Shown here: in pieces, positions 1 to 10,161 of the stretch
Numbering within the stretch: position 1 is the stretch's first letter
Layout of the letters: every line of letters begins with the position of its first letter
From: Octopus vulgaris
Lineage: Eukaryota
Assembly: GCA_951406725.2 (NCBI GenBank)
Contig: OX597817.1
Coordinates: 150,350,001-150,414,000 of the forward strand
Direction: 5' to 3'
Length of the DNA: 64,000 bases
Made by a program: the position numbers

Positions 1-3000
1 TCGATTCCAGGCAGTAACCTGAATAATAACAACAACATCGAAAAATACCTTAGAAATGAGAACCCAGGTTCAAAATTTCCCCAAGACACCTGATGAAGGC
101 TGGAAGGTATATCAGCCAAAACATTGTGCTAACAAACAAGATGAAGACAAATATGTCAAATGAAAATAATGTACATAATTCCTCATCTCTTAAATATAGA
201 ACAGTAGTTTTAATGTGTTTACTTTCTTTTCTTCCTATTCAAATAATGTTATTAAAAACAAAGTTCAGTTTTATTGTTTAAAAAAAATATATACAAATAA
301 ATACAATACACACACAAGAATTCTTTCAAATTTTGGCACAAGGCTAGCAATCTTAGAGCAGAAGGACCCAATTACATCAACCCTAGTACTAAACTCGTAT
401 CTATTTTATCGACCCTGAAAAGATGAAAGGTAAAGATTGAGCTCATCAGTATTTGAACTCACAACATAAAGAATCAGACTAAATGCTACTATGCATTTTG
501 TTTGAAGTGCTAACAATTCTGCTAGCACACTGCCTTAATAATAATAATAATGGTTTTAAATTTCGGCACAAAGCCAGCAATTTCGAGGGGGAGGGTGTCC
601 AATTACATCCACCTCAGTGCTCAACTAGTACTTTCTTTATCAACATCAAAAGAATGATAGGCAAAGCCAACTTTGGCAGGATTTGAACTCGGAATGCAAA
701 GATGGACAAAATGTTGCTAAGTATTTTTGCCAGATCGCCTCAATAACAGCAGCAGCAGTAATAATTTTGGCACAACGCCCGGAATTTTGTAGGGAAGAGT
801 TAAGTCGATTATAGCAACCCTAAAAGGACAAAAAGGAAAATTGGTCTTGGTGAATTCGAACCCAGAATATAAAGAGCTGGAAGCAAACTGTCACCAAGCA
901 TTTTGTCTATAAGCTCACCACCTTAACAACAACAACAACAGGAGGGGGAAAAAAAAAAAAGGAAAATGTGAATGTGATAAACTTCATGTACAAGTGTTTT
1001 ATTAACATTTTAATTTTATCGTACTGTACCTGTATTAGTATGGTTTCCACTGCATACTAATTGAGAAGCAAGAGTTTAACTTTTTTTTTTTTTTTTTTTT
1101 TTAAGTGAGATTTCTCATTTTGAACTCAGCATACTCAACAAGAAATTTTATTCTCACATTCTGTCAATACTGTTTGTCATCATAAAAAAAAAAAATATAA
1201 ATAAAATTAGTCCAGTCCAGTTTTCTGCTCAAGCCTCGACCCACTCTATATTTAATAATGTCTATGTATGCACATTTTTTTCTTTTTTTTCATTGTGAAT
1301 TTTTTTGGAGCCTATGATGGGAAAGATGTGGTGTAGAGAGGACATTTTTCTCTCTCAATATTTTGTACTGTACAAAGGAGGAAAACGGTCTTCTTTTTAC
1401 ATTTCAAACTCACCCTCCACATTTTAGTTGAAAAGGTTAATTCAAAAAAAATTTTTTTTTGTAAATGTTAATAGCTATCTTAATAGTTTGAGATGAAATT
1501 AAAACCTGACCACTAAATAGCTGTTAACGTGTACCTTACAGAACAAATTAGCAAACACAATTAGCATTGTATTACAACTGTTGTTCATCAGGAAGAAAGA
1601 CAGAGGGAAGAAGAGAAAACCAAAGGTGGTTGTTACCATTAGAAGACAATGCCAAGTCAGAGGTGCTTAATGTTGGGGGAGAATTACTTTGTCCATTATC
1701 TACTTAAACTATGTGACCTAGCACGTCCACCCAAATAGCAGGACTTTTTAAAAAATGGATCCTTCAAAGCTTCTTTTAGTGTTATTCGCGCCAGGGGATC
1801 ATATCGTAGCATCTTCCAAATCAAATCAAACAGAAGCACGTGGTCCTCATTGTTGGGCTCCATTATGTACCGCTGTATTAAAAAACGAAAAATAGACATC
1901 AATGTAAGTAAATAAACATATGACCATACAAGCAATTTTCTGAAAATATTATTATTGATTTTCAATATTTTGAAGGATGAAATAGAGACTACAAGAAAAG
2001 AAAAACTGTTGTCCAAACAGATTAAATTTATATGCAAATTGTAGGATACCAAAATATAAAGGGAACTTGCATTTATTTATCATGCTTGATATTTTAAAGA
2101 ATACGTTTTACTGAATAAGAGTTTTTTTTTTCCATCATTAAGAAAGAAAAGAGAAAAGAAATTAACATGAAATATATCTTCAGAGAAGTCAAGCCATTGA
2201 GGTCAGAACCATTAATAGTGAAGAAGAGAAAAAAAAAAGATAAAATCATCAGTTCTGGATTTGATTTGATAAACATTATGGAAGAAACAAAGAAAAAGAC
2301 AGAGAAATAAAAAAGAAAAAAATGAAAGAAAATTATTTGAACTCTTAAATCTTGTACTCCTATAAAACCCATGTAAAAGGTTCCTTCCTAAACAATAAAC
2401 AAACACATCTTTTATCTTTTACTGTTTCAGTCATTAGACTGTGGCCATGCTGGAGCACCAACTTGAAGGGTTTATAGTCAAATGAATCAACCCCAGTGCT
2501 TATTCTTTTTTTAAAGCCTGGTACTTATTTTATCAGTCTCTTATGCTGAACTGCTAAGTTACAGGAATGTAAACACAAAAACACTGATTGTCAAGCGGTG
2601 AAGAGGGGGCAAACACAGACACAGAGGTATGTATGTGATGGGCTTCTTTCAGTTTCCATCTACCAAATCCACCCAAAAGGCAAAACTGAGACAGATGCAG
2701 GCACAAAAAACCAGTGAATTGTCTAAATGGTTCACCAAAGTTTGAAGCTGAATATCTGCAGTTTCAGTGATCCTCTGACCACTGTTTTGTTTATTTTCTT
2801 TTTTCTTACAGTTTAGTATTTATGAGATTGTATATGTTCACCATTATTCTACTATATATAATTGTAAAGCAATGGTATATTTTATCGGTAACTAATACAG
2901 GTGTTCATATGACTAAGTTGAAATTAATCTAATGTAGTTCCTGTGCATGCCACAGAGCGCTCTCTTCTTTCTTTGGGTGGTAATTAATCTAATGCCACTA

Positions 3001-7300: not shown

Positions 7301-10161
7301 TGAAGGAAAAAAATGGTTGAGTGAATTAAGTAATGCACTATTGCAAGCTCGTAAGTCATAACTTCAAATTCAGGTCATTGCCAAGCATGGAACTTTCTTT
7401 GCTTCATCCACCTGATTGTCATTAAGAGATACCTGATTTTCTGGGTTCGAGTCAAAATGGTTGATCTTCTGTTAATGACAAGTCAAGCAACTGACCATCA
7501 GATCAATATGAGGGGGTTAAAGGAGTCACAGTTTGTCGACAGTTATCTATTTACAAAGTGATGCTCAACTCCGGCCAGTCCATGTCACTGAGTTGTATAT
7601 AGACACCATGGAGCGATACAACTTACTGCTATAAGCAGTAAGAAGTCTGTACCCTCAAATACTCTGCCAATAGTTCCAAACTCAAACCCCAGGCAATCTC
7701 TTAGGGCCAATAGTTCTAATCATTTAGTGATACATAAATTTGATTAAAAGTTAAGATATCCAATGTAAAACTGAAGTAAATATTATTATTATTATTATTA
7801 TTATCTGCATTCTGAATTGTTACAGAAAAAAAAAAAGACAATAAATATAGTAGCAACACAAACAACTTGAAATGATAACCTACACCCCGCCCCTCCAACA
7901 GATTATTTTTCACTGTTAGTAGAGATAATTAGAGGTAATAGTGATACTGGTGGTAGAGATAGCTGCTGTCATTACCATGAATGTGAAGTGAAGTGAATAC
8001 AAGTGGTGGGTTGGGTGAAAATGGGAGAATAACATGCTCAAGTTTAAAGTCCCATGCAACTATTAATGTTGGAGATGATCACCTGGCAAGTAGCTGTAGC
8101 TGACATCAGATTTGCCTGGACCCTCACTCTTTGTTTTCACACAGTCACGGTCACCATGGTTTTCAGATGATAACTCACTGCCCTGGTAACTTTTGCGCCG
8201 GTCCACGATCCTTGGTTCCTTCGGCACGGATGGCTTGTGCTCTAGATGTGGTTGCTCTTTTAATAAGGGTTTGAAGAAAGGGTGAGCAAGTGTTTCTGCA
8301 AGAGTTATCCTGTAATGAGGCTCATACTCAAGCATCTTTTCAATGAGATCAAAGAGCTGAAGATGTTGGATCCCTTTGTCTCTTAAATAGTGCTGTAAGG
8401 AAGAAAGAGGGAGGCACACGTCACATAGAGGGGATTGGTAAAAGGTTATTGTATCTAAACTTGGTGATGTTGCCCATTCTGCAAAGCTGTAATAGGTCAG
8501 TTACATCAATCATTAAAAACATCCAAGCTATTTTAAATTAGTGTGACACTACCAAAATGATGAAAGCAGGCTGTTAATAAAATTTCCCTGAAATAGCAAT
8601 TGGTGTAAATAGCTTGACAGTATTCTTTAAACACTCTGAGATGATATGTTAAAATTTACACATCTTAAAAGATTTCTATTTTATTATAAATAGATATAAA
8701 TATGAAATGGTTTTCTACAAAAATCACAAGAACTAAAGTGTAAAAAAAAAAATACTAATTTTACAAAGAAAAAATAAAAGTTGAGCAGAAGCTAGCTAAC
8801 TCTAAAAAATATATCACAATAAAAAATATTCTGTGAAAATCTGCTCTTCTTAATAATAGTTTCCTCAAATATTACCTTTAACTGTAATACGAATAAATTT
8901 CTAATAGACATGTAAATTTTTTATATTCTTGATGAAAAGAACATTATTTCCACCCATCCAATTTATTTATTCTTTATCTAATAGAGAAATAGCTAACATA
9001 ACTATGACTTTTGGTGGCATGTTTGCTTTCCTTGGCCGTAGCAACAGTTATCCAGGTATGATATTTTTAGAACCACTTAGAAAAGCTGCAAGATGTAATA
9101 ATATCTACACACATGGTTTTGGAATTACTGATTCCTAGAGCTAGCTACTAAATACACTTGGTTACATTTGTTTTCAAGGTGTACCAAACTAATATGGAAG
9201 GAGGGAAGGTGTAAATAAGCAAATAGTATTATTTCAGTCATCAATATTTTACTATTCATGCACACAATCACATTAGTACCTGAATATTAGTAACTTGGAA
9301 TATCATTTCATCTCAACTAATACCACAACAAATCAGTTTTCTGTTTTTTGGCTTTTTATATACCTTCATCACATGGTACAAATATGAAAACTTCAAAGGA
9401 TGGACATAGCAATGAAATATTAGTCTAGCCAAGGTTTTGTTTTCCAAGCAACATATCCACATAATTTACAATGTTTTCTTATGAAAATGAAGGGGACATT
9501 AAAGATAGACACTGCTAATAAGCATACAAAAAGGACACACATGCTCACTTCAAAAATGGGTTTAAATGGTTGTATGGTATGTATGTCAGTATATATAAAT
9601 TGACTAGTAATAATGGCTCTACATCTAGGCTTCTTGCATTAACTACCATAATGAAACAGAAGTGTATCTACAGAACAAGTTCATTTTTTTTTTTTATTAT
9701 GAACAATGCATCTCAAATGTTATTCTGATATAATCCTTGACAGAAACACAAATGATACTTTCTTCCAAGAAAGACTCAAATGAAATTTCTACAAGAAAGG
9801 TTTACTAAAGAAAAAAATAATAATCATGAACAGGACGTATGTATGTGTGCATATATATATATATATGTATATATATATGTGTATATATATATGTGTATAT
9901 GTATATGTGTATATGTATATATATGTGTATATATATATGTGTATATGTATATGTATATATATGTGTATATATATATGTGTATATGTATATGTATATATGT
10001 GTATATATATATGTGTATATGTATATATATATATATGTGTATATATATATGTGTATATGTATATATATATATATGTGTATATATATATGTGTATATGTAT
10101 ATATATATATATATGTGTATATATATATATATGTGTGTGTGTATATGTATATATATATGTG

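What the first reader, a model, noticed from the sequence alone, without database searches (positions are those of the whole stretch)
1696..8392. Two paralogous alternative last exons, each completing the kinase fold
Seen: 13A (8063-8392) and 13B (1696-1872) both have good phase-0 acceptors and both encode LFDLI..ML.Y.P..RITL.E.L..PFF, but diverge heavily. 13A adds a ~70-aa charged tail with RRKS; 13B ends in RARSHSLSR, an R-x-x-S substrate-like tail. Known: vertebrate CLKs have one terminal kinase exon per gene and diversify through four paralogues. Inference: one gene makes kinase variants with different C-lobes, tails and 3' UTRs.
Basis: partly seen in the sequence, partly recalled or inferred. 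Interest (0 to 1): 0.8.

Follow-up and report, generated by a model that had tools for sequence, protein, structure and literature searches.

The report
Octopus CLK kinase frame-switching end exons
An octopus splicing-kinase gene carries two old, related versions of the exon that finishes the kinase, but the upstream one is an internal exon spliced onto the downstream one, so the gene probably switches ends by skipping an exon, not by using two separate last exons.

Summary
Exons 13A (8392-8083) and 13B (1872-1696), on the minus strand, are paralogous ends of a CLK/LAMMER kinase domain in one gene. That gene is almost identical to Octopus vulgaris CLK2.

- 13A has its own GT donor at 8082-8081. 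All five cephalopod transcript-derived proteins that cover this part splice 13A onto the 13B acceptor.
- 13A is 310 nt, so after it 13B is read one base out of register and stops after eight codons (AVHNGAQQ).
- 13B is the ancestral end. It closes with RSHSLSR-stop, as do 89 of 121 CLK2/Doa proteins examined.
- 13A belongs to a clade of exons shared with gastropods and bivalves.

The frame-0 reading of 13B is intact in a distant cephalopod (69.5% identity, one single-codon gap). Changes sit in family-variable columns (p=0.0006), and similarity ends at the stop.

Best reading: 13A is a frame-switching cassette exon. Skipping it joins exon 12A or 12B to 13B in frame and restores the ancestral C-terminus.

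No 12-to-13B junction was seen in a cephalopod. No RNA reads or cephalopod DNA could be searched.

Exon 12 is also duplicated and used mutually exclusively.

The parts
17493..17572 (-). Exon 11 (80 nt). It encodes the EHLAMMERILG signature and ends in phase 2.
   Evidence: Motif scan. Boundaries and splice sites. 100% match to O. vulgaris CLK2.
16135..16222 (-). Exon 12A (88 nt, 3n+1), used in O. vulgaris CLK2 X5. It encodes the beta-sheet, conserved Trp and helix alphaH of the MAPK-like insert.
   Evidence: Maps to CLK1 410-436. Structural elements come from passages of PMC2667211.
15031..15121 (-). Exon 12B (91 nt, 3n+1), a paralogue of 12A used in O. vulgaris CLK2 X4. It is mutually exclusive with 12A.
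   Evidence: Maps to CLK1 408-437. Reading both exons gives a stop after 13 codons; omitting both gives a stop after 3 codons.
8083..8392 (-). Exon 13A (310 nt, 3n+1). It is an internal exon encoding a 13A-type end of the kinase fold plus a charged tail of about 60 aa that contains RRKS.
   Evidence: It falls in a clade with gastropod and bivalve exons, support 96/94.
8081..8082 (-). GT donor of exon 13A (context CAG|gtgatc, a weak donor).
   Evidence: Its use is shown by P0001, P0002, P0003, P0122 and P0124.
8063..8082 (-). Read-through codons (GDHLQH, the first codon shared with base 8083) and TAA at 8065-8063. These are translated only if the 13A donor is not used.
   Evidence: Not present in any public protein seen.
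1873..8080 (-). Intron between 13A and 13B (6210 nt counting the GT donor). It holds no further kinase exon copy.
1696..1872 (-). Exon 13B read in frame 0: 58 codons and TAA (1698-1696). This is the ancestral CLK2/Doa-type end of the kinase fold, closing with RSHSLSR.
   Evidence: Conserved in P0122 (57 of 59 aligned) and P0124 (69.5%).
1847..1872 (-). The same exon read after 13A, one base carried over: AVHNGAQQ and TGA (1849-1847).
   Evidence: Ends of P0001 and P0002. Offset translation.
998..1695 (-). 3' UTR after the frame-0 stop, with poly(A) hexamers starting at 1256 (ATTAAA) and at 1152 and 1003 (AATAAA).
   Evidence: The true poly(A) site was not determined.

Best explanation
The window carries most of the octopus CLK2/Doa-type LAMMER kinase gene on the minus strand.

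What each exon is:
- Exon 13B is the family's ancestral terminal coding exon. It is the only 3'-terminal exon for which there is evidence.
- Exon 13A is an old paralogue of 13B that sits 6.2 kb upstream as an internal exon.

How the switch works:
- 13A is 310 nt (3n+1). When it is included it supplies the last kinase helix and a long charged tail. 13B is then read one base out of register and ends after eight codons, and the rest of 13B serves as 3' UTR.
- When 13A is skipped, exon 12A or 12B (both end in phase 0) joins 13B in frame 0. The kinase is then finished by the ancestral helix and the short RSHSLSR tail.

The pair therefore behaves as a frame-switching cassette exon. At the protein level the two homologous modules are mutually exclusive. 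Together with the mutually exclusive pair 12A/12B, up to four C-lobe variants are possible.

Shown here:
- the homology of the two exons
- that they lie in one gene
- the 13A-to-13B junction
- the old age of the duplication
- conservation of 13B in frame 0 in a distant cephalopod

Inferred, not shown:
- that 13A is skipped in vivo
- that the variants differ in function
For: 1. Single gene. GxGx[19 protein letters not shown] and LAMMER each occur once, all on the minus strand. tblastn with the C-termini of 121 CLK proteins finds only 12A, 12B, 13A and 13B.

2. The 13A-to-13B junction.
- O. vulgaris CLK2 X4 and X5 and fragment P0003 end ...YLP + AVHNGAQQ or AVHNGARL.
- P0122 begins MSATATCQ. That is the other-frame reading of 8106-8083, and it continues straight into 13B in frame 0.
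- P0124 does the same in a more distant cephalopod.

3. 13B is the ancestral type. 89 of the 121 proteins held end S[HYR]S[LISA]SR. They include arthropods, nemerteans and five named molluscs. 13B ends RSHSLSR.

4. 13A is old. In a tree of 31 exon-13 peptides, 13A-type exons of Octopus, Haliotis, Gigantopelta, Mactra, Pinctada, Mytilus and others form a clade (96/94). The cephalopod 13B exons lie outside it in their own clade (98/94). Bivalve-like model P0123 holds a 13A-type stretch followed by a 13B-type stretch.

5. Frame 0 of 13B is under protein-level constraint.
- Against P0124 it shows 69.5% identity over 59 aligned positions, with one single-codon gap and no stop.
- Of 46 comparable columns, the 18 that differ have mean family entropy 1.44, against 0.73 for the 28 that are identical. 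Mann-Whitney p = 0.0006, using 109 family rows.
- The 70 residues that P0124 reads past the stop have no match downstream of the window's stop.
- Frame 0 has 0 internal stops. The other frames have 6 and 7.

6. Among the 12 named non-octopus mollusc proteins in the list, five join a 12-type exon to a 13B-type end, five join it to a 13A-type end, and two stop at exon 12.

7. Frame logic. 12A (88 nt), 12B (91 nt) and 13A (310 nt) are all 3n+1. Both stops in 13B lie in the last exon.
Against: - None of the five cephalopod transcript-derived proteins that reach this part (P0001, P0002, P0003, P0122, P0124) shows a 12-to-13B junction. All five include 13A.
- A word-index search with 13B for longer proteins found nothing. 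This is weak evidence: a 13B-ending isoform would be about 93% identical to X5 by my own estimate, so it could be hidden inside X5's 90% cluster, and the cluster members could not be listed.
- 13B evolves about four times faster than the fold part of 13A between the window and the second cephalopod (path 0.55 against 0.14). It also has Asp where the family has His before PFF. Constraint on it is therefore weaker.
- The AU test does not reject a tree that holds cephalopod 13A and 13B together (log-likelihood 10.9 lower, p-AU 0.15, 48 columns).
- No nucleotide sequence of another cephalopod was available, so no dN/dS could be computed.
- That P0003 and P0124 come from one lineage is inferred only from their overlapping frames.
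Confidence: 0.65

Rival explanations
1. Fossil exon. 13B was the ancestral end, but in cephalopods it is now only the acceptor, the eight-codon tail and the 3' UTR of 13A-containing mRNAs. On this view its frame-0 reading is no longer translated and survives through slow decay or non-coding constraint.
For: - Every cephalopod transcript-derived protein seen includes 13A (5 of 5).
- 13B is on a longer branch than 13A.
- 13B has an unusual Asp at the His-Pro-Phe-Phe position.
- The search with 13B found no longer protein.
Against: - The open frame, the single in-frame indel, and the concentration of changes in family-variable columns (p = 0.0006) hold across two cephalopod lineages. Their sequence just past the stop no longer aligns.
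- The terminal RSHSLSR and the stop position are retained.
- Non-coding constraint would not be expected to preserve a kinase-like substitution pattern in one frame.
Confidence: 0.2
2. One reading: 13A is also a true alternative last exon. Some transcripts would leave the 8082 donor unused, end translation at GDHLQH-TAA (8065-8063) and be polyadenylated inside the 13A-13B intron, giving a separate 3' UTR.
For: - The donor CAG|gtgatc departs from the consensus at positions +5 and +6.
- An in-frame stop follows after six codons.
- ATTAAA hexamers lie at 7150, 7122 and 7075.
Against: - No protein seen ends GDHLQH. All five end by the splice into 13B.
- No AATAAA or ATTAAA lies within about 900 nt of that stop.
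- This model could hold only as a minor addition to the cassette model, not in its place.
Confidence: 0.1
3. 13B belongs to a separate partial gene copy, or the arrangement is an assembly error.
For: None found, beyond the bare fact that a lone extra exon copy lies 6.2 kb downstream of 13A.
Against: - Proteins from public O. vulgaris models, and from two unnamed transcript-like sources, join the end of 13A exactly to the 13B acceptor.
- No other kinase exon copy lies between them or elsewhere in the window.
- The window has no N runs.
Confidence: 0.02

Closest known systems
Octopus vulgaris 'dual specificity kinase CLK2' isoforms X4 and X5 (NCBI models; P0001, P0002)
   Same: Almost every exon in the window is 100% identical to these proteins. 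They already record 12B (X4) against 12A (X5), and the 13A-to-13B splice with the AVHNGAQQ end.
   Different: Neither uses 13B in frame 0. Whether isoforms X1-X3 or other cluster members do could not be checked.
Protostome CLK2/Doa orthologues (arthropods, nemerteans, other molluscs)
   Same: Same kinase, with 78-93% identity over residues 300-470 of X5 among the 120 listed hits, apart from one plant row at 51% (P0008). Most have a single 12B-like or 12A-like exon followed by a 13B-type end closing in RSHSLSR. Named molluscs show both 13A-type and 13B-type ends.
   Different: In the window both pairs of alternatives lie in one gene in the order 12A, 12B, 13A, 13B, and 13A is spliced onto 13B out of frame. 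13A-type ends were seen only in molluscs and in unnamed rows close to them.
JNK genes MAPK8/9/10: mutually exclusive homologous exons inside the kinase domain
   Same: Tandem-duplicated homologous exons encode alternative versions of part of a CMGC kinase domain and have been kept for very long periods. Passages of PMC4494069 cite different affinities for transcription factors.
   Different: The JNK pair is internal and classical. Here the downstream partner is the terminal exon, and exclusion works through a frame shift, not through strict either/or splicing. That JNKs also vary their C-terminus is my recollection, not checked here.
Human CLK1-4 (solved structures)
   Same: 12A/12B align to the MAPK-like insert (beta-sheet, Trp419, helix alphaH). 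13A/13B align to the last helix region of CLK1-3 (passages of PMC2667211).
Dual-coding exons created by frame-shifting alternative splicing (general phenomenon)
   Same: One stretch of DNA is read in two frames depending on an upstream splice choice.
   Different: Recalled from general knowledge; no paper was read for it. Here the second frame is only eight codons long, and the long frame is the ancestral one.

Membership tests
CLK / LAMMER kinases (CMGC group) | EHLAMMERILG signature in helix alphaG | tested here: met
   EHLAMMERILG is encoded at about 17551-17537 in exon 11. The motif definition comes from passages of PMC2667211.
CLK / LAMMER kinases (CMGC group) | HTD in place of HRD in the catalytic loop, plus DFG | tested here: met
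   HTDLKPEN at 20250-20227 and DFG at 19984-19973. HTD is stated for all CLKs in PMC2667211.
CLK / LAMMER kinases (CMGC group) | MAPK-like insert with conserved Trp, followed by CLK-specific helix alphaH | tested here: met
   12A and 12B align to CLK1 410-436 and 408-437, with E from 2.6e-11 to 3.3e-8 against CLK chains only. Both contain LDWD.
CLK / LAMMER kinases (CMGC group) | Arg/Ser-rich N-terminal region | tested here: met
   The N-terminus of O. vulgaris X5 is rich in R, S and H. It maps at 100% identity to 62934-62806 and 49646-49398. This was judged by eye, not scored.
   13A is internal in 5 of 5 transcript-derived proteins. No poly(A) hexamer lies within about 900 nt of its read-through stop. 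RNA 3' ends themselves were not available.
Mutually exclusive homologous exons | Tandem homologous exons encoding the same structural segment | tested here: met
   13A and 13B: 21 of 32 identical, E 6e-13, same Pfam and PDB segment, and no coding exon between them.
Mutually exclusive homologous exons | Each exon is found alone in mature mRNA, never both in frame | tested here: inconclusive
   When both are present, 13B is out of frame. 13B alone was not seen in a cephalopod. It is seen in five named non-cephalopod molluscs.
Frame-switching cassette exon | Cassette length is not a multiple of three, and both resulting stops lie in the last exon | tested here: met
   13A is 310 nt. The stops are TGA at 1849-1847 and TAA at 1698-1696, both in 13B.
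Frame-switching cassette exon | Both the inclusion and the skipping junctions are observed | not testable with these tools
   Inclusion was observed. Testing skipping (16135 or 15031 joined to 1872) needs octopus RNA reads, and no such collection was open.

The most novel reading that the evidence does not exclude
Molluscs, octopus included, have kept for hundreds of millions of years a two-step switch in one LAMMER kinase gene. One step is the mutually exclusive pair 12A/12B (helix alphaH and the MAPK-like insert). The other is a frame-switching cassette, 13A, laid over the ancestral terminal exon 13B (last helix and tail). One gene would then make four kinases with different C-lobe surfaces and regulatory tails, which is a splicing-based counterpart of paralogue diversification. 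The choice of module would tune the substrate range or regulation of the kinase that itself controls splicing.
Probability: 0.4. Interest if true: 0.6.

Novelty: new variant of a known kind. Interest (0 to 1): 0.45.

Why it matters
CLK kinases phosphorylate SR proteins and so help set splice-site choice.

The alternative exons replace helix alphaH and the closing helix of the C-lobe. In the solved CLK structures, alphaH covers the groove that SRPK1 uses for substrate docking and buries the LAMMER helix (passages of PMC2667211). A gene that can swap these parts, and can also swap a long charged tail for the conserved RSHSLSR end, could change partners or regulation without changing the catalytic core.

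The arrangement is also a clear example of how a duplicated terminal exon can be kept: the new copy became an internal exon that pushes the old one out of frame.

In practice, annotators should not treat 13B as plain 3' UTR, nor 13A as a last exon.

Five of the full-text searches looked for this and found no description of it. Parts of it are already implicit in public isoform models.

Tried and rejected
- Word-index search with 13B for longer proteins: 3 candidates, none significant. I treat this as weak evidence, because isoforms differing only at the end may sit inside one 90% cluster.
- Listing the 29 and 6 members of the two O. vulgaris clusters: the database was switched off and the query was not sent. 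It is therefore unknown whether a 13B-ending isoform is already annotated.
- A third exon-13 copy. P0004 has a divergent 13A-type end with a seven-residue insert. Its best match in the window is 13A itself (65%), and no further copy exists.
- AU test of a cephalopod-only duplication: not rejected (p-AU 0.15). The old age of the duplication therefore rests on the 13A-type clade, the RSHSLSR end (outside the tree's columns) and the bivalve-like model P0123.
- Base composition. GC is 0.41 in the part of 13B beyond the eight-codon tail, 0.375 and 0.29 downstream, and 0.33 in the intron. This is suggestive at most.
- Open reading frames in the 13A-13B intron: three of 80-97 codons, none resembling a kinase, not pursued.
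- Literature: nothing on cephalopod or mollusc CLK alternative terminal exons, nor on the SHSLSR end.
Because of that, whether 13B packs correctly against the rest of the C-lobe was not modelled.
- Could not be consulted: metagenome and viral contig collections, supplementary files, and any cephalopod genome or RNA reads.
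Full report
**What is in the sequence.**

Read on the minus strand, 8392-8063 gives 109 codons and TAA, and 1872-1696 gives 58 codons and TAA. Both follow strong pyrimidine tracts and an AG, in phase 0.

The two peptides share 21 of 32 residues (E 6e-13). Both match the last 28 positions of the Pfam protein-kinase profile. Both scores are below the curated cut-off, as expected for fragments. Both align to the same C-terminal segment of solved CLK1-4 chains and to no family better than that.

**One gene, identified.**

A motif scan finds the glycine loop, [17 protein letters not shown] and EHLAMMERILG once each, all on the minus strand between 32300 and 17537.

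A search with 13A returned Octopus vulgaris CLK2 isoforms X4 (P0001) and X5 (P0002) and an unnamed fragment, P0003. Mapped back on the window, nearly every exon of X4 and X5 is 100% identical. The window is therefore from O. vulgaris or a very close relative. Residues 1-31 of X5 have no match, so the first coding exon lies outside the window.

tblastn with the C-terminal parts of all 121 CLK proteins then held finds only four C-terminal exon copies:
- 12A, 16222-16135
- 12B, 15121-15031
- 13A
- 13B

The penultimate exon is thus duplicated too. X5 uses 12A and X4 uses 12B.

They end ...YLP followed by AVHNGAQQ (AVHNGARL in P0003).

The sequence explains this:
- 13A has a GT at 8082-8081 (context CAG|gtgatc), so the exon is 8392-8083, 310 nt, which is 3n+1.
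- 13B read with one base carried over gives exactly those eight codons and TGA at 1849-1847.

Two further proteins found with 13B show the same junction from the other side. P0122 (66 aa) starts MSATATCQ, which is the other-frame reading of 8106-8083. It runs directly into 13B in frame 0, with 57 of 59 aligned residues identical. P0124 (158 aa) does the same in a more distant relative. Because 8083 and 1872 are 6.2 kb apart in the genome, these proteins must have been called on spliced RNA.

So in 5 of 5 cephalopod transcript-derived proteins that cover this part, 13A is an internal exon spliced onto the 13B acceptor. No AATAAA or ATTAAA lies within about 900 nt after the read-through stop of 13A, while several follow 13B. 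13A and 13B are therefore not two alternative last exons with separate 3' UTRs.

**Which copy is ancestral.**

The C-termini of the 121 proteins are telling. 89 of the 121 end S[HYR]S[LISA]SR, usually RSHSLSR. These include insects, crustaceans, a tick, nemerteans and five named molluscs (Potamilus, Solemya, Magallana, Elysia; Ruditapes has a 13B-type fold segment with a different end). 13B ends RSHSLSR-stop, so it is the ancestral type.

13A-type ends start like HYLRDKG and have long tails without that motif. They appear in Octopus, Haliotis, Gigantopelta, Mactra, Pinctada and Mytilus, and in the unnamed P0003 and P0004.

Of the 12 named non-octopus mollusc rows in the list, five have a 13A-type end, five have a 13B-type end and two stop at exon 12. 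All four combinations with 12A-type and 12B-type exons occur.

In a maximum-likelihood tree of 31 exon-13 peptides (48 columns), the nine 13A-type rows form a clade (96/94) and the three cephalopod 13B rows form another (98/94). The rest is unresolved. A bivalve-like model, P0123, contains a 13A-type stretch followed by a 13B-type stretch, the same order as in the window.

Against an old duplication, the AU test does not reject a tree that holds cephalopod 13A and 13B together (log-likelihood 10.9 lower, p-AU 0.15). With 48 columns its power is low. The RSHSLSR end, which lies outside those columns, argues independently for the old origin.

**Is 13B still read in frame 0?**

This is the open point. 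No cephalopod protein seen joins exon 12 to 13B. The word-index search with 13B found nothing longer. By my own estimate such an isoform would be about 93% identical to X5. It could therefore be hidden in X5's 90% cluster of 29 members, which could not be listed.

The indirect evidence is good:
- Against P0124, frame 0 of 13B keeps 69.5% identity over 59 aligned positions, with one single-codon gap and no stop.
- Of 46 comparable columns, 28 are identical and 18 differ. The differing columns are the ones that vary across the family (mean entropy 1.44 against 0.73; Mann-Whitney p = 0.0006; 109 family rows, mostly arthropods, many of them near-copies).
- P0124 continues past ...SLSR with W, as do three other fetched hits. 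I read this as a TGA stop translated as Trp by the gene caller. Those 70 further residues match nothing downstream of the window's stop. Similarity therefore ends where frame 0 ends, not at the eight-codon tail.
- Frame 0 has no internal stop, while the other two frames have 6 and 7.

On the other side, 13B changes about four times faster than the fold part of 13A between the same two lineages (paths 0.55 and 0.14). That comparison assumes P0003 and P0124 come from one lineage. I infer this only because AVHNGARL and RYIMEPDC are compatible overlapping readings.

**Mechanism proposed.**

Exon 11 ends in phase 2. 12A (88 nt) and 12B (91 nt) are both 3n+1 and end in phase 0. Leaving both out gives a stop after three codons, and reading both gives a stop after 13 codons. 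So one and only one of them is productive.

13A then decides the end:
- Included, it supplies the last helix and a roughly 60-residue tail plus AVHNGAQQ.
- Skipped, exon 12 meets 13B in frame 0.

Both stops lie in the last exon, so neither form should be a target of nonsense-mediated decay (established rule, not tested here). The weak donor of 13A fits a regulated exon, but that is inference.

Structurally, 12A and 12B align to CLK1 410-436 and 408-437. That is the two-strand sheet, the conserved Trp419 and helix alphaH. According to passages of PMC2667211, these cover the SRPK-type docking groove and bury the LAMMER helix. 13A and 13B align to CLK1 about 443-478.

The RSHSLSR end fits a basophilic R-x-R-x-x-S pattern. 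That pattern is recalled, not tested.

**Comparison with what is known, and novelty.**

The nearest described parallel is the pair of mutually exclusive homologous exons inside the kinase domain of the JNK genes (passages of PMC4494069). The octopus case differs in two ways: the downstream partner is the terminal exon, and exclusion works by a frame shift.

The public O. vulgaris models already contain the 12A/12B choice and the 13A-to-13B splice. Mollusc models already contain both kinds of end.

Five full-text searches found no paper describing any of this: CLK2 with octopus; LAMMER kinase with mutually exclusive; CLK with cephalopod; SHSLSR; and Darkener of apricot isoforms. For those searches I saw only listings and abstract starts, apart from the passages read in PMC2667211 and PMC4494069.

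I rate it a new variant of a known kind, of moderate interest.

**What was left out.**

Exons were searched one at a time. I built, searched and folded no joined model of the gene, so the fit of 13B to the rest of the C-lobe was not modelled.

The following could not be consulted: octopus RNA reads, cephalopod genome DNA, the metagenome and viral contig collections, cluster member lists and paper supplements.

The window showed no sign of being human. The only human sequences met were named PDB chains in search listings.

Noticed in passing
16222-16135 and 15121-15031 (minus strand): The penultimate coding exon is duplicated in tandem (12A and 12B, 88 and 91 nt, both 3n+1). Public O. vulgaris isoforms use them mutually exclusively (X5 uses 12A, X4 uses 12B). 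12A-type and 12B-type exons both occur across molluscs. 12A-like exons also occur in nemerteans, and 12B-like exons in arthropods.
   Followed up: partly
45350-45147 (minus strand): An alternative first coding exon begins MKVDVLTAYKEWANMP. Its first 22 residues are identical to the start of the unnamed protein P0004, and it resembles the MRVDVL...W..MP starts of bivalve CLK2 proteins. X4 and X5 do not use it.
   Followed up: partly
34714-34583 (minus strand): Isoform X4 starts inside an upstream extension of exon 3 (its residues 1-44 match 34714-34583). X5 enters the same exon at 34681. This gives a short form that lacks the Arg/Ser-rich N-terminus.
   Followed up: no
beyond 62940 / window end: Residues 1-31 of O. 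vulgaris CLK2 X5 have no match in the window. The gene's first coding exon for that isoform must lie upstream of the window end.
   Followed up: no
P0004 (unnamed protein), C-terminus: This cephalopod-like protein joins a 12A-type exon to a divergent 13A-type end. The end has a seven-residue insert and stops at ...KSLH, with only 65% identity to the window's 13A. The kinase part of P0004 is 120 of 121 identical to P0003, which has a normal 13A. It could be a third alternative exon in another species or an orthologue from a distant lineage. No counterpart exists in the window.
   Followed up: partly
P0020-P0022, P0024, P0025, P0027, P0033 (cockroach and termite CLK2/Doa isoforms): Some insect isoforms read on past the RSHSLSR motif into a further tail, while sister isoforms stop right after it. 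The ancestral end is therefore alternatively extended in insects too.
   Followed up: no
10001-12000 and 40001-42000: Two 2-kb stretches have unusually low GC (0.237 and 0.226) and strong opposite GC skew (+0.31 and -0.34). They are probably simple or inverted repeats inside introns.
   Followed up: no
P0123 (unnamed bivalve-like model): This gene model reads a 13A-type and a 13B-type segment in one frame, one after the other, and lacks exons 11 and 12. It is probably a faulty prediction, but it indicates that both exon types lie in one locus in a bivalve.
   Followed up: no
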